The notes under the pieces were generated by a model, which had not been told where the DNA came from, searched no databases, and saw only the letters and a program-made list of their open reading frames with translations. The position numbers and the translations under genes were made by a program. A DNA stretch of 64,000 bases from Thermodesulfobacteriota bacterium (GTDB lineage Bacteria; Desulfobacterota_D; UBA1144; Nemesobacterales; Nemesobacteraceae): assembly GCA_965209225.1 (NCBI GenBank), contig OZ242379.1:934762-998761 (forward strand), read 5' to 3'. Position 1 is the first letter of the stretch; each line of letters begins with the position of its first letter. Shown here in pieces: positions 11,765 through 51,101 of the stretch.

Positions 11765-12232
11765 TTACGATTTGTCTGATGATAGCGCTAACGTTATTTC
11801 TTTTAATACCTGTTTACGATTTTTCTTGATTTCATGTTCCCAAAACCGGAGAACTGTCCATCCGTTTCGTTTTAGATAAGCTGTGTTTCTTCTGTCTCGC
11901 TTGCGGTTGTTTTCTATTTTTTCCCTCCAGAAGTCATTTTTCAGCAAATGCTTCCATTTGGGATAATACCAACCATGCCAAAAATCGCTGTCTAAAAATA
12001 CGCAAACTTTATACTTTTGGAAAACTATGTCTGGTCTACCTCTAATTGAAATGACATTTGTCTGGAATTTCTTTCTCGTGATTTTTTTTAGTGCGTGCAC
12101 AATTTCTTGTTCAAATTTCGTTTCTTTTGAGCGAATCTTTGCCATTAATTCTGAGCGCTTTTCCGTTGAAAGCGAGTCATTGCTTCGTTCTTTTTTGAAG
12201 TTGCGATTCAAATAATTTTTTGTTCTTTTCAT
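11765..12232 (-). CDS. vsr: very short patch repair endonuclease
   Basis: RSELMAKIRSKETKFE, RGRPDIVF, VFLDSDFWHG and WEHE motifs of Vsr. Confidence 0.9.
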   Translation of the reverse strand: MKRTKNYLNRNFKKERSNDSLSTEKRSELMAKIRSKETKFEQEIVHALKKITRKKFQTNVISIRGRPDIVFQKYKVCVFLDSDFWHGWYYPKWKHLLKNDFWREKIENNRKRDRRNTAYLKRNGWTVLRFWEHEIKKNRKQVLKEITLALSSDKS

Positions 12233-13260
12233 GAAGTTCCAGAATCAAAGATATCCGAAGCTTTAACACCGTGTTTTGAGAAATTAAAATTCTCATCTAA
12301 CAACTTCTTCCACTGGTTTAGACGATTTTTTTTGGCGTTTTGTCGCCAATAATGATTTAGTTTTTCTTTGTCCATTGTTTTTATCTCACATCTGATCATA
12401 TTAGCTTTGGAGTGGAGATTATAGGCGATTCGCGGAACCAAGACGGATTTTTCTTTGATTGTTAGTTTTTTTCTTCCTCCTGCAGTGAACAAGTCTCTCA
12501 GGTTGGAAGCTATGACTCCATGCTCAGTCATGAGATAAGCGGAGACTCGTTGGAATTTCATCAAGCTCTCGCCAAAAATTTCTGGGAAAAGAATCATTAT
12601 CTCCGCTTTAATTTTTTCTTGTTTCTCCCTACGTAATCCTCTGTAAGGTTTAATTATGAAGTCAGAAGATTTGTCATCATTTTTGTCGATCCACCATAAT
12701 TCTTCTCCATCTTTTAGTATGCTTCTGTAGTAATCTTTTATTTTTCCTATTTTCTCATCGTCTTTTCGCAGTTTGTCGTAATCAACACCGATTTTGTCGA
12801 AAATAGATTCCCCTCTGGGTAAATTCATGTCTATACGGTAACGGGGCGAGTGAGTGACGCTCACGCCGGGTAGACATTCTTGGTATGGTCGATATCGAAC
12901 ATCCGGTGCGCCGCCAAGTTTCCCAAACATTATGTAAATTCGCTCAACATCCTCTCTGGATGATTCGAGGACACTGTTGCCGGTGGAAATCCAATGATCC
13001 TTTGAAGTCATTTTTACCTCGACGCCAAAGTATTTTTTAGCAACTATATCAGGGAAGGAGCGGGAATCTGTTTGTTGAATCTCTCCTTCGAAGCCGATTT
13101 CTTTGGCTTCTTTGCGCATTTTTTCATATACGAAGTTCTCAAAATCAATTGGTGAAATATTTTCCTCTTCAGGTAGAAAGTCGATCAGTAGTCTTCGAGT
13201 TTCTTCGAGAAGAGTTATAAATTCTTCTTCATCAAGGTCTGGGTTATTCACATAGATCAT
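12229..13260 (-). CDS. putative type II restriction endonuclease (PD-(D/E)xK), located between dcm and vsr
   Basis: FPDIVAKKYFGVEVK fits PD-x9-ExK. Its start ATG overlaps the dcm stop (ATGA coupling) when started at the internal Met (ORF track 12229-13311). Synteny M-R-V. Confidence 0.5.
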   Translation of the reverse strand: MIYVNNPDLDEEEFITLLEETRRLLIDFLPEEENISPIDFENFVYEKMRKEAKEIGFEGEIQQTDSRSFPDIVAKKYFGVEVKMTSKDHWISTGNSVLESSREDVERIYIMFGKLGGAPDVRYRPYQECLPGVSVTHSPRYRIDMNLPRGESIFDKIGVDYDKLRKDDEKIGKIKDYYRSILKDGEELWWIDKNDDKSSDFIIKPYRGLRREKQEKIKAEIMILFPEIFGESLMKFQRVSAYLMTEHGVIASNLRDLFTAGGRKKLTIKEKSVLVPRIAYNLHSKANMIRCEIKTMDKEKLNHYWRQNAKKNRLNQWKKLLDENFNFSKHGVKASDIFDSGTS

Positions 13261-14051
13261 GAATGCAGGTTCACGTTTATAAATTCTTCGATTGATGTTG
13301 CGAGATACCACGCAAGTACGGGAGGAACTGCGTTACCAATTTGCTTGTAGGCTTGCGATGTTGAAGGATAAAAAATAAAATCGTCAGGGAACGACTGTAT
13401 TCTTGCAGCTTCTCTGGCGGATAATCGCCGTTTGCCATTCCAGTGGAATTCAATGTTCCCGTGATGTTCTGTTCTCATAGTGGGACCAGGCTTATCAGGA
13501 TCTAAAATGTTATTCCCCTGTCCTTTGTTTTTTTTCGCTTTGGACCAATAATGATTAGGTAATTCTCCCTCCCTAACGGTTTCTAAATCACCAATAGCTT
13601 CCCTTAAGGTAATCCATTTGTTTTTATTTGGGGGTTTCGGGTATTCAAATGGAGGCAATTTGCTTCTCTTGGTGCCGATTATAAAAATTCGTTTTCTAGT
13701 CTGTGGGACGCCATAATCCGCTGCGATAAGTAGTTTGTAAACAACGTGATAACCTAAGTCTTCAAAATTATTGATTATGGTTTTTATCGCTTCACCGCGG
13801 TCTATAGTGAGAAGCCCTTGCACATTTTCTGCTACGAACACCAGAGGATTAGTCAACTGGACAACTTTGGCCATGCTTCTGTACAATGCACCCCGCTCGC
13901 TTTTTAAGCCTTTTCGTCTTCCAGCATGGCTAAAGTCTTGGCAGGGAAATCCCCCTAGAACAATATCTGTATTTATCTGGTGGTGATTATTGAAGGGAAA
14001 CAGACTTGGGTCTTTGCTGTTGCATATCTCCGTGATATCAGCATTTACCAA
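13257..14051 (-). CDS. dcm: DNA (cytosine-5)-methyltransferase, C-terminal part (motifs IV-X), lacks motif I because of an inversion
   Basis: GGFPCQDFSHAG (IV), ENV (VI), QTRKRIFIIG (VIII), REAARIQSFPDDF (IX), GNAVPPVLA (X); begins with TTG right at the inversion junction, stop codon immediately upstream. Confidence 0.85.
   Translation of the reverse strand: MVNADITEICNSKDPSLFPFNNHHQINTDIVLGGFPCQDFSHAGRRKGLKSERGALYRSMAKVVQLTNPLVFVAENVQGLLTIDRGEAIKTIINNFEDLGYHVVYKLLIAADYGVPQTRKRIFIIGTKRSKLPPFEYPKPPNKNKWITLREAIGDLETVREGELPNHYWSKAKKNKGQGNNILDPDKPGPTMRTEHHGNIEFHWNGKRRLSAREAARIQSFPDDFIFYPSTSQAYKQIGNAVPPVLAWYLATSIEEFINVNLHS
14036..14048. repeat. left 13-bp inverted repeat (tatcagcatttac) at inversion junction
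   Basis: Perfect reverse complement of 14298-14310. Confidence 0.85.
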
Positions 14052-14081
14052 GTATCAACAACCAAGTAAACTTACAATCAG

Positions 14082-14342
14082 TTGAAGAAAAGTACTTCTT
14101 TTGATGACACGGTTATGGAAGATAGGTTTTCTGTAGTTTCCCTTTTCACTGGTTGTGGAGGTCTTGATTTGGGGTTTGTGGGTGGTTTTACCTTTCTCGG
14201 ACAAAAATACGAAAAAAGAAGATTCAAGATCATCTGGGCCAATGACATAGACAAGTCTTCGTGTAAAACTTTTAGAAGCTATTTCAGTCACAACATAGTA
14301 AATGCTGATACTGCAAGTTTTAAATGTCCTGATCTTTCCTAA
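14082..14342 (+). CDS. dcm: N-terminal fragment of the same C5-methyltransferase (motifs I-II) encoded on the opposite strand
   Basis: SLFTGCGGLDLGF (motif I) and IIWANDIDKSSCKTF (motif II); ends ...HNIVNAD then diverges, whereas the minus-strand part starts VNADITEI. Confidence 0.8.
   Translation: MKKSTSFDDTVMEDRFSVVSLFTGCGGLDLGFVGGFTFLGQKYEKRRFKIIWANDIDKSSCKTFRSYFSHNIVNADTASFKCPDLS
14298..14310. repeat. right 13-bp inverted repeat (gtaaatgctgata) at inversion junction
   Basis: Perfect reverse complement of 14036-14048; the 249-bp segment 14049-14297 between them is inverted relative to the rest of dcm. Confidence 0.85.
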
Positions 14343-14427
14343 GGCTGCGAACAATAGAGTCTGACACCTCACGGCTTTAAACAGAACGGTTTAAGCGGAG
14401 GAAAATGGACACGGGAGCACAGAACGC

Positions 14428-15303
14428 ATGGAAAGCGAACAGATCCCCAGTTACGACGACTTGCTCTGGCCGACTCTAAAAGCACTGGAAGCAAGAGGTG
14501 GTTCTGCTTCCATTCAGGAGATTTCGGAACAGATAGCTTTTGATCTGGATTTGTCCGAATCAATTCTGAGCATTCCACACAAGCAGGGTTATCGTTCAGA
14601 GGTTGATTACCGTGCTGCGTGGGCACGTACTATGCTGAAGCGTATAGGTGCGGTTAAGAACTCTTTGCGAGGAATCTGGGCGATCACGGAAGCAGGACGA
14701 GATATCTCTACGGAAGAAGAAGTACGGAAGCGGGTTAGCAAATGGAGGCGTCAAGATACCGTCGCACGCCGTAAAGTGGGTAAGACCAAACACGGAGAAG
14801 GTGATTCTTCAACAAGTTCTTACGCTCAGACTAATGAAGATGAACAGGACTGGGTAGATGAGCTTCTTGAAAATATTCGCAGTATTAAGCCCGAGGCATT
14901 TGAACGTCTTTGTCAGCGCATTTTGCGGGAAGCGGGATTCATCAAAGTAGAAGTAACAGGCCGTTCCGGTGATGGAGGGATTGATGGTGCCGGGATACTC
15001 AGGGTCAACCTTCTTTCGTTCCATATCAGATTTCAGTGCAAGAGGTATTCTGGTTCGGTCAGCGCAAGTGAAATCCGCAATTTCAGGGGGGCTCTGGTCG
15101 GTCGTGCGGACAAAGGCCTTTTTATTACCACGGGAAGATTCACCAAGGATGCAGAACGAGAAGCTGTCAGATATGGGGCCCCTGCTATTGACTTGATCAA
15201 CGGTGTTGATTTTTGTTATTTGCTGAAGAAATTCGGTCTGGGAGTAAGGAGTGAACCTGCTGAGATCGTCAAACCTCAGCCAGAATTTTTCGAGAATTTC
15301 TGA
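14428..15303 (+). CDS. Mrr-like restriction endonuclease (Mrr_N winged helix + Mrr_cat), putative Type IV modification-dependent enzyme
   Basis: N-terminal YDDLLWPTLKAL (Mrr_N) and GRSGDGGIDGAGI...FQCKRY...GLFITTGRFT catalytic-core pattern. Confidence 0.8.
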   Translation: MESEQIPSYDDLLWPTLKALEARGGSASIQEISEQIAFDLDLSESILSIPHKQGYRSEVDYRAAWARTMLKRIGAVKNSLRGIWAITEAGRDISTEEEVRKRVSKWRRQDTVARRKVGKTKHGEGDSSTSSYAQTNEDEQDWVDELLENIRSIKPEAFERLCQRILREAGFIKVEVTGRSGDGGIDGAGILRVNLLSFHIRFQCKRYSGSVSASEIRNFRGALVGRADKGLFITTGRFTKDAEREAVRYGAPAIDLINGVDFCYLLKKFGLGVRSEPAEIVKPQPEFFENF

Positions 15304-25537: not shown

Positions 25538-26476
25538 TCAAGAGATAAGTTCTTTGTAAGTCAGCCTTTTCCCCACAAGTCCGTTTATCGTGGCGTTTAT
25601 CTGGTCCATGGTGTCCATGGGGCGGACATTGTTGCGGTTTGAAAACTCGTCAATGTACTTCTGAAGGTGCTTGACGCTCATCTTGTGGTAAATGCCGTAG
25701 TATCCACGCTTCAGTAATGCCCAAAAGCTTTCTACGCCGTTAGTGTGGGCTTCCCCTTTAACGTATTCTCCGACCGAGTGATGAACCGTTGCGTGTTCAT
25801 ATCCCTTTTCCTTCAGTCCCGAGTAGCTTTTGTAGTCATCGGTAAATATCACGCTTCCCTTTTCCACATGACTGAGGATGATCCAGTGAAGGGTTTGAGC
25901 ATCAGTGCTTTCCACCCGCAGAGCTCTTACCTTTTTGCTTTCCCTATCCTTGATTCCCACAACCGGAGTTTTGCCTACAGCGCCACGTCCCTTTTTGAGC
26001 TTCTTTTTCTCGTGCTTGTTCTTTTCCAGTCCTCCGAGGTAAGCCTCGTCAACCTCTACGATCCTTCCGAAAAGACGGGAAGCGTTGTTGGCCCAGCCCT
26101 GGCGGATTCTGTGAGCAAGGAACCACGCTGACCTCTGCTGTATTCCGAGATCGTTTCCGAGCTTGGTACTGGATACACCCTTTAAGGAAGTGGACATAAG
26201 GTAGATAGCCATCAACCATTTCCGGTAGGAGAGGGGGCTTTCTTCCATTAAAGTTCCGGTCTTGGCACTGAAATACTTGCGGCAGGGCTTGCACCAGTAA
26301 GGCATTTCCTTGTGGCTTGCTTCCCTGGTTTCTTCGGAACCGCAACGAGGGCAGCTCCTTCCGTCCGCCCATCTCATTTTCTCAAAATGCTTCCTGGCTT
26401 TCTCTTCCGTGTTGAAGAGTTCCATAAAGTCATAAAAACTGATTCTTTCTCTTGCTGACTTGGGTTTCTGTCCCAT
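25538..26476 (-). CDS. IS1595-family transposase (N-terminal zinc ribbon + ISXO2-like DDE domain)
   Basis: CPRCGSEET...CKPCRKYF zinc ribbon; DDE region with HTNGVESFWALLKRG. Confidence 0.9.
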   Translation of the reverse strand: MGQKPKSARERISFYDFMELFNTEEKARKHFEKMRWADGRSCPRCGSEETREASHKEMPYWCKPCRKYFSAKTGTLMEESPLSYRKWLMAIYLMSTSLKGVSSTKLGNDLGIQQRSAWFLAHRIRQGWANNASRLFGRIVEVDEAYLGGLEKNKHEKKKLKKGRGAVGKTPVVGIKDRESKKVRALRVESTDAQTLHWIILSHVEKGSVIFTDDYKSYSGLKEKGYEHATVHHSVGEYVKGEAHTNGVESFWALLKRGYYGIYHKMSVKHLQKYIDEFSNRNNVRPMDTMDQINATINGLVGKRLTYKELIS

Positions 26477-41783: not shown

Positions 41784-44288
41784 ATGATTGAAAGCTACTT
41801 TACCCCTGAGGCTGCAGAGTTCATCAGGGAGGCAATAACTGAGGCCTATGGAAACGAGGTCTTTTTAGTCGGCAGGGTAAATGAAAATTCTCTGGTCTGC
41901 GATATAAAAGTCCTTGCGCGCGGCAACCGCCAGGCGGTTCCGGCCATCCTTGACGCGGCGAAAACGGGGAACGTGGTTGTGCATAATCATCCCTCGGGCA
42001 ACCTCGAACCTTCACCCCAGGACGTGGCAGTCGCTTCGGCTTTCGGAAACAAGGGCGTCGGTTTCTACATAGTGGACAGCGAGGTCGAGAAGGTGTACGT
42101 AGTTGTTGAGCCTTTTGTTCCGGGGGAGAAGGTACGTGTTGACAATGAATCCGCGAGGGAATATCTTCTGCCCGCAGGTCCCGTGGCCCGCGTCCTGGGA
42201 GAGAAATACGAGCACAGGGAGGAGCAGCTGGAAGTCCTCTCAAACGTAATTGACGCATTCAACGAGGAACACCTCTCAATGATAGAGGCCGGCACGGGCA
42301 CCGGAAAAACTCTTTCCTACCTCATCCCTTCCATTCTCTGGTCAATTGGCAACAGTGAGAGGGTTCTGGTCTCAACAAACACCATCAATCTTCAGGAACA
42401 GCTGATAAACAAGGATCTTCCCCTTCTTCGGGATCTTTTCCCGAGGAAATTTGATTACGCTCTCGTTAAGGGAATGAGAAACTACTTCTGTCTTCTCCGC
42501 GGCGAAGCCGTCGGGCAGGATCTTTTCGATTTTATAGACGACGGGGAAAGAGGTTCCATGAAGGATATTCTTGAGTGGGCCAGGACCACCTCGGACGGCT
42601 CACTTTCCGATCTTGCGCTCACGCCCCCTGACGATGTGTGGGACAGGGTGTCTGCGGAAAGCGAAAGCTGCCCGGGGACCAAGTGCCCCCACTATTCGAG
42701 CTGCTTTTTCTTCAAGTCGCGGAGGGATCTCTCGAGGGCCTCGGTGCTGGTTGCCAACCACCACATGCTTTTCTCCGATATTGCTATAAAAGGGACTGCG
42801 GGACCCGATTCGGATTTCGGGATAATTCCCCGCTACGCGAAGGTCGTTTTCGACGAGGCGCACAATATCGCCGAGGCGGCCACTTCGCACTTCAGTCTGA
42901 AACTTAGCAAGCACGGAATTGCGAAGACGCTTTCAAAGCTTCGTTCCCGGAAAAACAGGGACAAGGGGCTTGTATCCTACATCTCGCACCTCGCGCAGAA
43001 AGAAAAGGATTCCGCCCTCAGGGAGGTTTTCGAGCGCTCGGCCGGCGGGCTTGCGAGGGCCGTTGAGCGCATAGAGACGGTAAGCGAAGAGGTCTTTAAT
43101 TCGCTTTACGGTTTTGGGGCGGATCTCTCGGGCGAAACGTCGATAAGCCTGAGGCTCACAGAAGAGGTTATGCGGCACGAGAAGTGGCCTGCCGTTGAGG
43201 AGCGGTTCGGGGCGCTTGAGAAAACTCTCTTTTCGCTTGAAAACGAGATTGCCCATCTGCTCGGAGTAGTCGAGGGATCACCTCACGCGGATTCCCACAT
43301 AAAACTCACCGCTGAGCTTGGAGGCATCGCTAAGAGGTCCCTTGCTTTCCGCGAAGCCATAGGAAGGTTTTTTGGCGAGCAGGACGAGAGCTATATAAGA
43401 TGGTTTGAAGGGAACCGCAGAAGGGCGGCGATTTTCTGCTCCATCAACCTCTCCCCGCTTGATGTATCCAAGGAGCTTTCGGAAAAGCTCTACTCGAAAA
43501 CCAAAACCGTCGTTATGACTTCCGCGTCGCTTGCCGTGGATAAGAATTTCGATTTCCAGAGGAAAAACATCGGGCTTTCGGATAATGAAAGATTCAGGGG
43601 GCTTATTGTTGATTCACCGTTTGATTTCCGAACGCAGTCCCTGCTGCTGGTCCCGTCGGATATGCCCGAGCCCGGGCGCGAGGACTACGAAGATTCCCTC
43701 GCGCGGATACTCTCGGACTCGATCTCCGTAACGAACGGAAACGCCCTCGTGCTTTTCACCTCTTATTCCTCGCTTAACAGGGTTTATGAAAAGACGGGGA
43801 AAATTCTTGAGACCATCGGGGCCGTCCCGGTCAGTCTTTTCAGGCAGGGGGAAATGCCCAGGGGTCTGCTGCTTGAAAAATTCAAAACGCTTGGGAACTC
43901 GGTGCTTTTCGCGACCGACAGCTTCTGGGAAGGAGTAGACATTCCCGGGGACTCCCTGAAGATGGTCGTTATATGCAGACTTCCCTTCAAGGTTCCCACG
44001 GATCCGGTTACGGAGGCGAAAATCGAGTACATGGAAAAACAGGATATGGATTCGTTTCGCGAATACATACTTCCCCACGCGGTACTCAGGTTCAAGCAGG
44101 GCTTCGGAAGACTCATACGCACCAAGACGGACCGCGGTGTTGTTATGGTTCTTGACAGGCGCATCGTGTCGAAGTACTACGGGAAATTCTTTATCAACTC
44201 CGTTGCGGGGAGCGGCTTCTTCTGCGCGAAGACGGAACAGGTACTCGGACGGATGCGGGATTTTTTCTCTGAGGAGCGAGAGCACTGA
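41784..44288 (+). CDS. dinG: RadC-like JAB/MPN domain fused to DinG-family (Rad3/XPD-like) ATP-dependent DNA helicase
   Basis: N-terminal HNHPSGNLEPSPQD JAMM/RadC motif (aa ~60-75); then Walker A AGTGTGKT, DEAH box VVFDEAHN and C-terminal helicase motifs. Confidence 0.8.
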   Translation: MIESYFTPEAAEFIREAITEAYGNEVFLVGRVNENSLVCDIKVLARGNRQAVPAILDAAKTGNVVVHNHPSGNLEPSPQDVAVASAFGNKGVGFYIVDSEVEKVYVVVEPFVPGEKVRVDNESAREYLLPAGPVARVLGEKYEHREEQLEVLSNVIDAFNEEHLSMIEAGTGTGKTLSYLIPSILWSIGNSERVLVSTNTINLQEQLINKDLPLLRDLFPRKFDYALVKGMRNYFCLLRGEAVGQDLFDFIDDGERGSMKDILEWARTTSDGSLSDLALTPPDDVWDRVSAESESCPGTKCPHYSSCFFFKSRRDLSRASVLVANHHMLFSDIAIKGTAGPDSDFGIIPRYAKVVFDEAHNIAEAATSHFSLKLSKHGIAKTLSKLRSRKNRDKGLVSYISHLAQKEKDSALREVFERSAGGLARAVERIETVSEEVFNSLYGFGADLSGETSISLRLTEEVMRHEKWPAVEERFGALEKTLFSLENEIAHLLGVVEGSPHADSHIKLTAELGGIAKRSLAFREAIGRFFGEQDESYIRWFEGNRRRAAIFCSINLSPLDVSKELSEKLYSKTKTVVMTSASLAVDKNFDFQRKNIGLSDNERFRGLIVDSPFDFRTQSLLLVPSDMPEPGREDYEDSLARILSDSISVTNGNALVLFTSYSSLNRVYEKTGKILETIGAVPVSLFRQGEMPRGLLLEKFKTLGNSVLFATDSFWEGVDIPGDSLKMVVICRLPFKVPTDPVTEAKIEYMEKQDMDSFREYILPHAVLRFKQGFGRLIRTKTDRGVVMVLDRRIVSKYYGKFFINSVAGSGFFCAKTEQVLGRMRDFFSEEREH

Positions 44289-48339: not shown

Positions 48340-50889
48340 CTAACGTTCCCGAGAGTCGGATACAGCCTGTTTTCCCCTCGGGCGTTTTTTCCACAAAGCC
48401 GCGGAGAACAACAGGGAGACTACAAGAAGCGAGTCAAACAAAACTCCCCCGGCCCTGGCGGAAGTTGCGGCGACCGCGCACCCTCCATCGTCGTCGCTTG
48501 TTTCAGGATGATATCCGGAACCGACTATAAGGGTCTGGCCATCGAGAAATCCGGGGAAATCCACTCTCTCCACGTAGCTAAGCTTCGGCACATCGCCCGG
48601 GGCCGTGCCTTCTCCAGAAAAAGCGGGAGTGGAATCAGTCGGATCATCCCAGAGGTACTCGACAAAGCCCTCCGCGTCCCCGGGCAGCAGCCCCAGGTCC
48701 CCGCACTGCCTCGGCTCACCATTTGCCACCTTTGCCACCTCGTCACCGACATTACATCCGTTGTCGTCCACAACATCGAGAGTCCCGTTTTCAAGCGCCG
48801 GGGAATTCCCGTTAAAAAACACAAGCCGGTCTCTCTCCGTCATCACAAACAGGTATACGGCCCCGTGTTTCCACGGAAGCGCTCTCCAGCAGTTGCGCAC
48901 AGAAGCCAGACTGGCGGGAGTCTGCCCGGCTTGTTCTACCTGCTCCGTGAAATGCTTCACGAATTCTTTCACGAAGCTCCTAAGCGTGTCACTGTCTGTA
49001 ACCTTGTTGGCAGTTGTCCCCTGCTTGAAATAGGGTTCTTCATCAATGATCTCACTTATGAAATAAGGACATCTTATATTGTCAAAACTTACGTCATCGG
49101 ACTCACGGTGAAGCCCGCCGAGGAGTATGAGTCCGCTTTTCCATATCGGATGCTCGAACCTGACGGCACATGCCTCCCTGTTTTCACTGTTCCGAACGCA
49201 GCCGCCGCCTTCATCGGCTTTTGCTTCTGCTATGAGTTCCGCAGCATCCAAGGTTCCGTTCTGCGCCTCAGGGTCGTGCGCGTGAGTATAGATCGTTCCG
49301 TTTTCATCTATCACCATGAGGTATATGGTGCCGTTTTTCCAGTCCCCTCCGTCCACGGTCAGGCTTTTCTCGAATCTTATGTTTTCGTTGGGACCCTCTA
49401 TGGCTTCCCAGTGAGCTTTCGCGTGCCGAACGAATTCGAGCATATCATCCCGGTCCGAAGCATCCACATCTCCGGCAGTTACGCTATGGGTGTGTTCGCC
49501 CTCGTGGGCCGAAGCCGTTTCGGGACCCGAGAGAAAAACAAGTGTCGCCAACGCACAGACGACGAAGGCTGCCGGTCCGCTTCGCGAAAAGACCCTCTTT
49601 GCTCCCGAGAGTTTTTCAAGGAAAACCGCTGGGAGCAAAAACAGAACTGTCATGAAGAAACTTAGCAGAGCGTTTCCGGGCGCGTCCGCTCCTCCCGCGA
49701 TAGCGCAGCCATTGTCGTCACCTGTTTCGGGATAGATGCCCGAACCCCAGATAATCCGACCCTCCCCATCGGTTGACGGAATCCATGTAACATAGGTTGT
49801 CTTGGGAGAATTGCCGGGGGCCTTGCCGGGTATCAGATTTCCTTCGGAATCGCGTATATCGTCATCAGGCGTAGTCGGGTCGTCCCAGAGATACTTGACA
49901 AACGCTCCTTCGCCGGAATCCAAATCCCTTACGGCTTCCACCAGTAAATCCCCGACATTGGTTCCGTTGTCGTCTTCAACATCCAGGCTTTTGTTCTCAA
50001 AACTGGGCGTGTTGCCGTTTAGCACGACCAGCCGGGTATCCGCGGTCATTGCGAAAAGGTAGATGGAATCGTTTTTCCATGGCGAGACCCTGAAACAGCT
50101 AACCGAGTTGATAAGCTCAAGCAAGCCTGCCCTCTCCCGCCAGTCAACATAGAATTGAGCAAATTCATCTACAAACTTCCTGAGCGTATCCCTGTCCACC
50201 ACGGCGGCGGCGCTTGTTTCGGGAACATAATGAGGGCATTTCAGATTGGAAAAGGATACATCTGAGAAATTATGGTGAAGCCCTCCGACCAGAATGGTCG
50301 GAAGCGGAAATGAAAGACTGTCGAGGCGCAGGTTGAATTTAACGGCGCATGCCGCTCTGTCTTCATTCCCGAAAGTGTAATTGCGACAAGCCGCTCCATC
50401 TTCTTTTTCCCGTAACTCGTCCATGAGCCCTTTCATAACGTCATTCTTGTGTGACAGGATTCCGCCTTGCGCGGGAGGATAATACGGGTGAGGTTGCTGT
50501 ATCACGCCATCTCCGCTCGTCCGGAAGATATATATGCTGTCTTTGCGCCAGTCACCTCCTTCCACTTCGAGGAGCTGCAGGAAGGGCGCGAGGCCGGTGT
50601 TGTAGTCTGTTAGCTGCTCCATGTGAGCCCTTGCGTGCAGCATGAAGGCTTTCATCTCTTCCATGTCCCCGGCTGTGACGTCTCTTGCTGTTATGCTGTC
50701 GGGGCTGTGGTTGTCTCTTGTGCCTGCACGGCTCGGGATATCAGGGATTTCATGGGCCTGAAGCGGACCCTCATGGGAAAAGAAGACAAGCAACGCCAGC
50801 ACGCAGAGAAAAAAGACCGGATTTTGTGTTTTTATAACGGCGCTGGAATTAATGGAACTTCCCGGTTTCCGTAAGAATGCGGTACTCAT
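48340..50889 (-). CDS. large membrane protein with two paralogous ~350-aa periplasmic Cys-containing domains (internal tandem duplication), 4 predicted TM helices
   Basis: Repeat 1 and repeat 2 align (HE..., GDW..IY, CRNYTFGNEDRAACAVKF vs CVRNSENREACAVRF, LKCPHYVPE vs IRCPYFISE, YLWDDPT in both). Each repeat is followed by GC-small-residues plus a TM segment, and the C-terminal tail is basic. Confidence 0.6.
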   Translation of the reverse strand: MSTAFLRKPGSSINSSAVIKTQNPVFFLCVLALLVFFSHEGPLQAHEIPDIPSRAGTRDNHSPDSITARDVTAGDMEEMKAFMLHARAHMEQLTDYNTGLAPFLQLLEVEGGDWRKDSIYIFRTSGDGVIQQPHPYYPPAQGGILSHKNDVMKGLMDELREKEDGAACRNYTFGNEDRAACAVKFNLRLDSLSFPLPTILVGGLHHNFSDVSFSNLKCPHYVPETSAAAVVDRDTLRKFVDEFAQFYVDWRERAGLLELINSVSCFRVSPWKNDSIYLFAMTADTRLVVLNGNTPSFENKSLDVEDDNGTNVGDLLVEAVRDLDSGEGAFVKYLWDDPTTPDDDIRDSEGNLIPGKAPGNSPKTTYVTWIPSTDGEGRIIWGSGIYPETGDDNGCAIAGGADAPGNALLSFFMTVLFLLPAVFLEKLSGAKRVFSRSGPAAFVVCALATLVFLSGPETASAHEGEHTHSVTAGDVDASDRDDMLEFVRHAKAHWEAIEGPNENIRFEKSLTVDGGDWKNGTIYLMVIDENGTIYTHAHDPEAQNGTLDAAELIAEAKADEGGGCVRNSENREACAVRFEHPIWKSGLILLGGLHRESDDVSFDNIRCPYFISEIIDEEPYFKQGTTANKVTDSDTLRSFVKEFVKHFTEQVEQAGQTPASLASVRNCWRALPWKHGAVYLFVMTERDRLVFFNGNSPALENGTLDVVDDNGCNVGDEVAKVANGEPRQCGDLGLLPGDAEGFVEYLWDDPTDSTPAFSGEGTAPGDVPKLSYVERVDFPGFLDGQTLIVGSGYHPETSDDDGGCAVAATSARAGGVLFDSLLVVSLLFSAALWKKRPRGKQAVSDSRER

Positions 50890-51101
50890 TTTTAACCCCC
50901 CTTGCGTGTTTTACATAGACAGTTACCTCACGTTAGTCTTCAGGTCAAACCTGCCACCTAGAATCAGCTTGGCTTTGCAACCTGAATCCCAACGACATGA
51001 ATGTGATTATCCCATATTGGAGCAATGATTTCAACCTGATAAAGTGCCCTGTGCAGGCGGATTGCTTGACTTGGTGTTGTTTCTGCCGCGCGTGGGACGG
51101 G

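What the first reader, a model, noticed from the sequence alone, without database searches (positions are those of the whole stretch)
48340..50889. 849-aa membrane protein built from an internal tandem duplication of a ~350-aa Cys-containing periplasmic domain of unknown family
The two halves align over their length with conserved Cys pairs and a shared YLWDDPT block. Predicted topology is TM1, domain A (out), TM2, KR-rich loop (in), TM3, domain B (out), TM4, basic tail, which obeys positive-inside. Each domain is followed by a GC(A/I)A-hydrophobic-basic stretch resembling C-terminal sorting signals. The protein may therefore be a fusion of two once-separate sorted proteins. No family was recognised.
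Basis: partly seen in the sequence, partly recalled or inferred. Interest (0 to 1): 0.5.

Follow-up and report, generated by a model that had tools for sequence, protein, structure and literature searches.

The report
Two surface-sorted Cache proteins fused
This gene from a Dadabacteria (sponge/marine) bacterium joins two complete secreted-protein precursors end to end, each with its own signal peptide, ligand-binding Cache ectodomain and a previously uncatalogued cysteine-containing sorting tail, which points to a new branch of a known surface-sorting system.

Summary
ORF 48340-50889(-) encodes 849 aa whose halves align at 36% identity (E 2e-76), with four hydrophobic segments and aligned Cys.

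The fusion reading is strongly supported:
- The GC(A/I)A-hydrophobic-basic tail is a portable tripartite module. A tail profile finds 146 cluster representatives, nearly always at the extreme C-terminus.
- These include about 70 single-unit relatives and about 25 proteins with unrelated bodies (LRR, Calx-beta, FN3, PKD, Spondin_N).
- No NCBIfam sorting-signal model recognises the tail.
- The internal tail (invariant G394-C395) and internal signal peptide (invariant A461|H462) are as conserved as the terminal ones.
- A second, independent fusion exists (P0066).

A 201-aa CPBP/Rce1-like protease with intact catalytic motifs has all its top NCBIfam hits among myxosortases, below cut-off. It lies on at least eight Dadabacteria megabase-scale contigs that carry this family.

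Most likely the precursor is cut four times into two surface-anchored Cache proteins, but processing is inferred, not shown. The ligand is unknown. A co-varying N-terminal His/HxxxH cluster hints at a metal.

Verdict: new variant of a known kind; interest 0.55.

The parts
48340..50889 (-). Complete 849-aa ORF: the double precursor [signal peptide - Cache unit - sorting tail] x 2
51006..51034 (-). Promoter-like site (TTGAAA-17-GATAAT with TG) in the 212-bp gap downstream of the tal/pgi gene; consensus match only
50896..50903 (-). Shine-Dalgarno AAGGGGGG, 6 nt upstream of the ATG
50755..50889 (-). Signal peptide 1 (aa 1-45): basic n-region, h-region VFFLCVLALLVFF, c-region ending PLQA; invariant A45|H46
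49705..50754 (-). Mature unit A (aa 46-395): N-terminal His46, H61, HxxxH helix (H85, H89), then two tandem sCache_2-like modules (about aa 66-215 and 225-388); Cys pairs 168/181 and 218/265
49594..49719 (-). Internal sorting tail A (aa 391-432): DDNGC395AIAGG, spacer, hydrophobic helix 405-422, then K/R; G394-C395 invariant
49507..49593 (-). Internal signal peptide 2 (aa 433-461): basic loop, h-region AAFVVCALATLVFL, c-region SGPETASA; A461|H462 invariant. 18 of 49 homologues keep a Met in the TM2-TM3 loop
48478..49506 (-). Mature unit B (aa 462-804): same build as unit A (H462, H466, H489, H493; two sCache_2-like modules; Cys 564/574, 607/667, 712/729)
48343..48492 (-). Terminal sorting tail B (aa 800-849): DDGGC804AVAA, spacer, helix 816-833, then KKRPRGK

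Best explanation
The gene encodes a polyprotein-like double precursor made by in-frame fusion of two paralogous genes. [quoted passage not shown] Inferred pathway: the chain inserts with four TM spans and both ectodomains outside. Signal peptidase I cuts after A45 and A461, leaving N-terminal His46 and His462. The invariant Cys395 and Cys804 are modified, probably lipidated. A Dadabacteria-specific myxosortase-like CPBP intramembrane protease then removes each tail at or near the Cys. This would give two ectodomains of about 340-350 aa tethered to the envelope or cell surface, with a TM2-loop-TM3 hairpin left in the membrane. Fusion would guarantee 1:1 production of units A and B, which the model suggests pack together. 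The ectodomains bind an unidentified small ligand; a co-varying cluster of N-terminal His plus HxxxH suggests a metal ion. Shown here: the duplication, the Cache fold, the tail's portability across unrelated cargo, conservation of the internal processing motifs, and the presence of the protease. Inferred: every cleavage and lipidation step, surface localisation, the A-B pairing and the ligand.
Against: No processing step has been observed. The tail is not recognised by any curated sorting-signal model (MYXO-CTERM 7.4 bits against a cut-off of 20). The CPBP candidate scores below every myxosortase cut-off, including Mrt_core (73 against 100). Its link to the tail rests on co-occurrence inside one lineage with no negative set, and it is not adjacent to cargo genes (8 kb from one). 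About 10-12 residues separate the Cys from the TM helix, whereas described Cys-type signals abut the helix (10.1101/2023.06.07.544157). Whether signal peptidase cuts an internal signal sequence here is untested. A type II secretion system was not looked for in these genomes. The N-terminal 15 residues of the mature unit are modelled with low confidence, so the His site has no structural support, and the co-variation is not corrected for phylogeny. The A-B packing is inferred only from pTM 0.75, because no PAE was available.
Confidence: 0.6

Rival explanations
1. The protein stays intact as a four-TM inner-membrane protein whose two periplasmic Cache ectodomains form a covalent pseudo-dimer. 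It would act as a ligand-sensing co-receptor or accessory subunit for another membrane protein, and the GC tails would be ordinary TM anchors.
For: Cache domains normally sit between TM helices in receptors that work as dimers (established knowledge of the family; PDB hits are all sensor domains). pTM 0.75 for the whole chain suggests that A and B pack together. The topology obeys positive-inside.
Against: There is no cytoplasmic output domain; the loop is 13-26 aa and poorly conserved, and the C-terminal tail is about 15 aa. No helix connects the last strand to TM2 or TM4, as transmembrane signalling would need, and the TM segments have pLDDT <50. The most conserved residues near the membrane are A-x-A|H and G-C, which are processing-type motifs. 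The same tail ends unrelated LRR, Calx-beta and FN3 proteins and about 70 single-unit relatives, where it cannot form a four-helix bundle.
Confidence: 0.2
2. Processing is partial. The N-terminal signal peptide and the terminal tail are processed, but the internal tail and signal-peptide hairpin stays uncut. Both ectodomains would then remain joined and held at the inner membrane by the TM2-TM3 hairpin.
For: Internal signal sequences in polytopic proteins are often not cleaved (general knowledge). The window's internal tail scores lower than its terminal tail (53 against 63 bits). The internal tails have Pro in the helix in one clade (LLLPAVFL).
Against: G394-C395 and A461-H462 are invariant in all 49 homologues, just like the terminal motifs. 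Internal tags have been shown or proposed to be processed in other sorting systems (PMC11980579, its references 45 and 46). A protein held at the inner membrane by a hairpin could not be sorted onward like the single-unit relatives.
Confidence: 0.17
3. The 849-aa ORF is an assembly or sequencing artefact that merges two adjacent ordinary genes.
For: Single-unit genes exist, and tandem arrays of these genes occur.
Against: 49 independent full-length homologues from many assemblies keep the same in-frame junction, including complete chromosomes. Units A and B form separate orthologous clades. No stop codon or start with an RBS lies at the junction in the window.
Confidence: 0.01

Closest known systems
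[quoted passage not shown]
   Same: Tripartite tail (signature with an invariant Cys, a TM helix, a basic cluster) at the extreme C-terminus of many unrelated secreted proteins in one lineage. A CPBP/Rce1-like glutamic intramembrane protease with intact motifs is encoded in the same genomes, and its best NCBIfam matches are the myxosortase models.
   Different: No curated CTERM model reaches its threshold. The signature is a single Cys in DDGGCA[IV]AG, not GCGC, and a spacer of about 10-12 residues precedes the helix. The lineage is Candidatus Dadabacteria, not Myxococcota. The protease is a minimal 201-aa protein scoring below all Mrt cut-offs. No experimental data exist.
sCache_2 sensor domains of chemoreceptors, e.g. 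Adeh_3718 (PDB 4K08) and V. parahaemolyticus MCP (2QHK/4EXO)
   Different: There are two such modules in tandem per unit and four per protein. There is no C-terminal helix into a TM segment and no cytoplasmic signalling domain. The units carry disulfide pairs and an N-terminal His/HxxxH cluster, and they end in a sorting tail.
Internally placed sorting tags: MXAN_5598 (internal MYXO-CTERM attributed to gene fusion) and the Haloferax ArtA substrate with a non-C-terminal tripartite signal (PMC11980579 discussion and its reference 46)
   Same: A tripartite sorting signal lies in the middle of a polypeptide, is attributed to gene fusion, and is proposed or shown to be processed.
   Different: Here the internal tag is followed directly by a second complete signal peptide and a second copy of the same cargo with its own tag. 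The arrangement is conserved over a whole family of about 50 cluster representatives, arose at least twice, and occurs in tandem arrays of up to three genes.
GlyGly-CTERM / rhombosortase
   Same: Tripartite tail with Gly-Gly just before the cleavage region; surface retention of T2SS cargo.
   Different: The invariant Cys and the spacer are absent from GlyGly-CTERM. No rhomboid-type candidate was looked for or seen, and no NCBIfam GlyGly-CTERM hit was found on the tails.

Membership tests
Cache superfamily (Pfam sCache_2 PF17200 / dCache_2 PF08269) | Sequence matches the family HMM above the gathering score | tested here: met
   dCache_2 49.6 bits (cut-off 26.5); sCache_2 34.6 bits (cut-off 25), aa 271-343
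Cache superfamily (Pfam sCache_2 PF17200 / dCache_2 PF08269) | PAS-like alpha/beta fold with N-terminal helices, superimposable on solved sCache_2 domains | tested here: met
Cache superfamily (Pfam sCache_2 PF17200 / dCache_2 PF08269) | Extracytoplasmic location | tested here: met
   Predicted only: signal-peptide-like segments precede each unit, Cys pairs are conserved, and charges are positive-inside
Cache-containing signal transducers (MCP, histidine kinase, GGDEF and similar) | Cytoplasmic output domain after the second TM helix | tested here: not met
   Only an 18-aa loop and a ~15-aa tail lie on the cytoplasmic side; Pfam finds no other domain
Canonical dCache (double Cache with a long stalk helix) | Membrane-distal and membrane-proximal modules sharing one long N-terminal helix | tested here: inconclusive
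MYXO-CTERM (TIGR03901) | HMM score at or above the curated cut-off (20 bits) | tested here: not met
   7.4 bits on the full protein; no hit or 6.7 bits on isolated tails
MYXO-CTERM (TIGR03901) | Restricted to Myxococcota; GCGC-type signature abutting the TM helix | tested here: not met
   All 21 genome loci are Dadabacteria or 'Thermodesulfobacteriota' MAGs. The tail has a single Cys and a spacer of about 10-12 residues
JDVT-CTERM, Synerg-CTERM, CGP-CTERM, GlyGly-CTERM, PEP-CTERM (NCBIfam models) | Recognition by the curated model | tested here: not met
   No CTERM model hit at E<=1-10 on 3 isolated tails and 10 tail-bearing proteins
Cys-type tripartite C-terminal sorting signals (class) | Signature motif with invariant Cys, TM helix and basic cluster | tested here: met
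   Alignment A2: G-C invariant; Cys in 179/179 units; hydrophobic helix; K/R cluster
Cys-type tripartite C-terminal sorting signals (class) | Found at the extreme C-terminus of several unrelated secreted proteins in the same genomes | tested here: met
   146 representatives; LRR, Calx-beta, PKD, FN3, Spondin_N and SWM bodies. P0153, P0208 and a two-unit gene lie on one chromosome
Cys-type tripartite C-terminal sorting signals (class) | A myxosortase-family CPBP protease encoded in the same genomes | tested here: met
   201-aa PF02517 protein with invariant EExxxR, FxxxH and HxxxN motifs on at least 8 megabase-scale contigs that carry the family
Myxosortase family (NCBIfam Mrt_core NF040914) | The candidate protease scores above the curated cut-off (100 bits) | tested here: not met
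   72.7 bits; MrtP 76/250, MrtS 60/130, MrtJ 41/75. Myxosortase models are its top six hits and seven of its top eight, but all are below threshold
Cys-type tripartite C-terminal sorting signals (class) | Cys-dependent cleavage, lipidation and T2SS-dependent surface display | not testable with these tools
   Needs experiments. The literature reports a T2SS only for the 'terrestrial' Dadabacteria clades, which include sponge MAGs (10.1101/2020.06.22.165886)
Sec signal peptides cleaved by signal peptidase I (TM1 and TM3) | n-h-c organisation with small residues at -1 and -3 | tested here: met
   By inspection: PLQA|H and ASA|H; A at -1 is invariant in both units. No SignalP-type predictor was available

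The most novel reading that the evidence does not exclude
Candidatus Dadabacteria have their own, so far uncatalogued, Cys-type protein-sorting system: a 'DDGGCAIAG' tripartite tail plus a minimal 201-aa myxosortase-like CPBP protease. The system anchors eukaryote-like adhesion proteins (LRR, Calx-beta, FN3, Spondin) and a large family of Cache ectodomains on the cell surface. Within it, whole precursors have repeatedly fused into polyproteins that are cut four times to give two surface proteins in 1:1 ratio. After signal-peptide removal, their N-terminal His forms a metal (possibly copper) site together with an HxxxH helix.
Probability: 0.45. Interest if true: 0.65.

Novelty: new variant of a known kind. 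Interest (0 to 1): 0.55.

Why it matters
Cys-containing C-terminal sorting signals and their CPBP "myxosortases" were described only recently, and only one has been tested experimentally. This locus would extend the class in three ways:
- a tail that no curated model detects;
- a candidate minimal sorting protease of only 201 aa;
- a new lineage: a candidate phylum that includes sponge symbionts, whose surface LRR, Calx-beta and FN3 proteins are thought to mediate host contact.

The double precursor is also a natural test case. It asks whether an internal sorting tag followed by an internal signal peptide is processed, that is, whether bacteria can make two envelope-sorted proteins from one Sec substrate.

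Finally, it shows Cache domains used as free-standing surface proteins instead of as receptor input modules. That widens what a "Cache" annotation may mean in genome annotation.

Tried and rejected
- **Tail-profile search with the word-indexed protein search.** It returned only five short fragments and missed even the family itself, so it was uninformative. The exhaustive HMMER search replaced it.
- **Exact look-up of the window protein.** Not on record.
- **Other tail-bearing ORFs or a polytopic CPBP-like protein in the window.** None found.
- **Motif and TM scan of about 0.6 Mb of fetched Dadabacteria loci for a CPBP protease.** Nothing found. The enzyme turned up only when the neighbourhood of the Calx-beta cargo was fetched.
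- **Apparent linkage of CPBP P0249 to LRR cargo P0161 through an equal contig length of 10,864 bp.** Rejected: P0161 is not on that contig. Only exact megabase-scale length matches were used afterwards, and one of them was confirmed by record name.
- **Sequence search of the CPBP protein against PDB.** No hit.
- **AFDB fold search.** Library unavailable.
- **Gene neighbourhood as a clue to function.** The window gene sits in a conserved tkt - tal/pgi - [gene] - rpiA - CBS - sulfite reductase slot, and other paralogues sit among unrelated housekeeping genes. No functional linkage could be inferred.
- **An M50 peptidase about 6 kb from some paralogues.** Considered as a processing enzyme but judged to be plain synteny.
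- **Lipobox reading of the Cys residues inside the signal peptides (C29, C445).** Rejected: there is no L-[AS]-[GA]-C context and they are not conserved.
- **Literature search for an internal sorting tag followed by a signal peptide.** Nothing specific was found.
Full report
**1. Observation**

The ORF at 48340-50889 on the - strand encodes 849 aa from an ATG preceded by a strong Shine-Dalgarno sequence (AAGGGGGG). Residues 1-440 and 441-849 align over their whole length at 36% identity, E = 2e-76. The aligned cysteines are 168/564, 181/574, 218/607, 265/667 and 395/804, and both halves share the YLWDDPT block.

Hydropathy gives four hydrophobic segments, at about 17-43, 404-429, 433-459 and 813-834. 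They coincide with the only helices that AlphaFold places outside the globular parts. The loop between the second and third segment and the C-terminal tail are both basic.

The two-unit form is not an artefact. 49 full-length homologues of 829-924 aa from independent assemblies, including complete chromosomes, keep the same in-frame arrangement.

**2. What the domain is**

The claim that no family is recognisable does not hold. Pfam dCache_2 (49.6 bits, cut-off 26.5) and sCache_2 (34.6 bits, cut-off 25) match residues 271-343.

After the last strand there is no helix running into the membrane segment. There is only an acidic linker and a stretch of small residues, modelled with pLDDT below 50. 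There is no cytoplasmic domain.

**3. The tail is a portable sorting signal**

In the family alignment the sequence after each unit is D-D-x-G-C-A-[IV]-A-G, then about ten small or polar residues, a hydrophobic helix (FNLLLIVSVLFSAV) and a K/R cluster. G-C is invariant in both the internal and the terminal copy.

A 42-position profile of these tails was searched with HMMER against 1.84 billion representative proteins. It found 146 proteins at E ≤ 0.001 and 49 at E ≤ 1e-10, with the match almost always at the last residues of the protein. Local classification with a family HMM split them as follows:
- About 70 are single-unit relatives of 330-520 aa, mostly 400-500 aa (signal peptide, one unit, tail).
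- About 25 match only in the tail.

Nine of ten tail-only proteins scanned with Pfam carry typical surface-protein domains:
- LRR in four;
- Calx-beta in three, one of them also with PKD;
- Spondin_N in one;
- SWM repeat in one;
- FN3 together with LRR in one of the four LRR proteins.

P0055 combines about nine FN3 repeats, one Cache module and the tail.

Two such cargo proteins lie on the 1,919,453-bp Dadabacteria chromosome that also carries a two-unit gene. These are the Calx-beta protein P0153 and the LRR protein P0208. Further tail ORFs are present in other fetched loci.

No NCBIfam sorting-domain model recognises the tail on isolated tails or on ten cargo proteins. MYXO-CTERM is the nearest, at 6.7-7.4 bits against a cut-off of 20.

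The family and the tail were found only in Candidatus Dadabacteria MAGs. Some are labelled Thermodesulfobacteriota by NCBI, and many come from sponge metagenomes.

**4. Evidence for a fusion of two complete precursors**

- Each unit is preceded by a segment with signal-peptide organisation that ends in an invariant Ala followed by an invariant His (A45|H46, A461|H462).
- The loop between tail A and signal peptide 2 is 13-26 aa, with 4-11 K/R and 0-2 D/E. In 18 of 49 homologues it keeps a Met just before the second signal peptide, as expected for a relic start codon.
- Unit A of the window protein is closer to unit A of other proteins, and unit B to other unit Bs (56% to P0034 unit B), than A is to B (36%). 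The family therefore descends from one old fusion or duplication.
- P0066 is a separate case. Its halves are 55% identical to each other, 54% and 45% identical to the single-unit protein P0108, and generally about 26-31% identical to the window's units over the full unit length. This indicates a second, independent fusion.
- P0065, and probably P0074, look like collapses back to one unit.
- In a related genome the same pgi-rpiA slot holds three two-unit genes in tandem.

**5. Candidate sorting enzyme**

The literature shows that four Cys-containing tripartite signals (MYXO-, JDVT-, Synerg- and CGP-CTERM) are processed by CPBP/Rce1-like intramembrane proteases. MrtX-dependent, Cys-dependent cleavage has been demonstrated experimentally, with lipidation and T2SS export proposed (10.1101/2023.06.07.544157; PMC11980579).

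No such gene is in the window. However, 8 kb upstream of the Calx-beta cargo gene, the Dadabacteria chromosome encodes a 201-aa PF02517 protein. Three results bear on it:
- Its top six NCBIfam matches, and seven of its top eight, are myxosortase models: MrtP 76 bits, Mrt_core 73, MrtS 60, MrtC 57, MrtX 42, MrtJ 41, MrtZ 37. All are below their curated cut-offs.
- The three catalytic motifs EExxxR, FxxxH and HxxxN are invariant in an alignment of 13 orthologues.
- Orthologues of 74-93% identity lie on contigs whose exact lengths equal those of at least eight megabase-scale contigs carrying the Cache family. Two more such contigs carry other tail cargo.

The gene sits in a conserved lipB-CPBP-nadE setting.

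This is co-occurrence within one lineage without a negative set, so the assignment is plausible but not established.

**6. Most likely mechanism**

Shown here:
- the duplication;
- the Cache fold;
- the portability of the tail;
- equal conservation of the internal and terminal processing-type motifs;
- the presence of a myxosortase-like protease.

Inferred: the precursor inserts with four spans and both ectodomains outside. Signal peptidase I cuts after A45 and A461. Cys395 and Cys804 are modified, and the CPBP protease removes each tail. The result would be two envelope- or surface-tethered ectodomains of about 340-350 aa plus a residual membrane hairpin.

Internal sorting tags have precedents: MXAN_5598, LPXTG placed internally, and a Haloferax ArtA substrate (PMC11980579 and its references 45 and 46).

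The high pTM of the full model suggests that units A and B pack together, which would explain the selective value of 1:1 co-synthesis. This is an inference, because no PAE was available.

The main rival is an uncleaved four-TM pseudo-dimeric Cache co-receptor. It is disfavoured by four findings: there is no output domain; there is no helix continuous with the TM segments; the loop is poorly conserved; and the same tail occurs on unrelated cargo.

**7. Function of the ectodomains**

Across 179 units, Y333, W335, K363 and the tail Cys are universal and Y366 is present in 178; the first four are Cache core motif residues.

A His set is present together in 122 of 179 units: the predicted mature N-terminal H46, plus H61, H85 and H89. 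H46 co-occurs with H89 (144 both, 14 neither, 7 discordant) and with H85, but not with H61 or H206. This is not corrected for phylogeny.

Some single-unit relatives carry Met-rich linkers (MPEMPEM, MDDMMDD) before the tail.

Together these observations hint at a metal, possibly copper. The model places the N-terminal 15 residues with low confidence, so this remains speculative. The ligand is unknown.

**8. Novelty and verdict**

The domain is a known fold, and the sorting logic belongs to a known class. What is new:
- an uncatalogued tail with a spacer and a single Cys;
- a candidate minimal myxosortase-like protease;
- a new phylum for this class of system;
- Cache modules used as free-standing sorted proteins;
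- a conserved and recurrent double-precursor architecture with an internal tag followed by an internal signal peptide.

I rate it a new variant of a known kind, with interest 0.55.

Noticed in passing
window 12229-15303: Low-GC stretch (0.39-0.44) holding a C-5 cytosine DNA methylase (13257-14051, -), an Mrr-type restriction endonuclease (14428-15303, +) and a 360-aa ORF with no Pfam match (12229-13311, -). It looks like an acquired restriction-modification island.
   Followed up: partly
window 25538-26476 (-): IS1595-family transposase (DDE_Tnp_IS1595 plus a zinc ribbon) next to another low-GC stretch at 22-24 kb.
   Followed up: partly
window 41784-44288 (+): 834-aa fusion of an N-terminal RadC-like JAB domain to a DinG/XPD-type helicase, followed by DUF4186 and a sulfite/nitrite reductase. 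The whole block is syntenic in other Dadabacteria genomes.
   Followed up: partly
L004 10001-18131 (= L009 4477-12646): In a related genome the pgi-rpiA slot that holds one gene in the window holds three two-unit genes in tandem (875, 846 and 881 aa).
   Followed up: partly
P0066 (894 aa) and P0108 (448 aa): A second two-unit protein whose halves are 55% identical to each other and 54% and 45% identical to the single-unit protein P0108, but generally about 26-31% identical to the window's units over the full unit length. This is an independent, more recent fusion.
   Followed up: yes
P0065 (463 aa), P0074 (432 aa; L028 299-1597): Single-unit proteins that look like recombinational collapses of a two-unit gene. 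In P0065 the N-terminal part matches unit A and the C-terminal part matches unit B. P0074 has a unit A-like body but a tail that resembles the terminal tail of its clade. P0074 is on a TARA Oceans contig.
   Followed up: partly
L026 7571-11806: Three adjacent tail-bearing ORFs on a low-coverage contig, one apparently split by a frameshift. Several single-unit relatives have Met/Asp-rich linkers (MPEMPEM, MDDMMDDTMDD) just before the tail, reminiscent of Cu(I)-binding Met motifs.
   Followed up: no
L030 18832-20025 (-) and 22728-23072 (-): A 397-aa SRCR-domain protein (a eukaryote-like domain) and another sCache_2 protein lie near the LRR cargo gene. This fits a host-associated (sponge) lifestyle.
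   Followed up: no
L003 18390-19061; also L015, L016 and L021 at about 18.3-20.4 kb: A short (223-aa) M50-family intramembrane metalloprotease lies about 6-7 kb downstream of one paralogue group, in a xerC-M50-scpA-scpB block. This is probably synteny and not a functional link.
   Followed up: no
P0056 (536 aa), P0057 (982 aa): Distant secreted relatives from outside the tail-bearing family. They have the same tandem Cache-module unit but no tail, start with a C-P motif instead of His, and carry extra Cache modules or a different C-terminal domain.
   Followed up: no
L029 1153-1758 (+); alignment A4: The 201-aa CPBP candidate has two invariant Cys (C150, C158) in addition to the catalytic motifs, and sits in a conserved lipB-CPBP-nadE arrangement.
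   Followed up: partly
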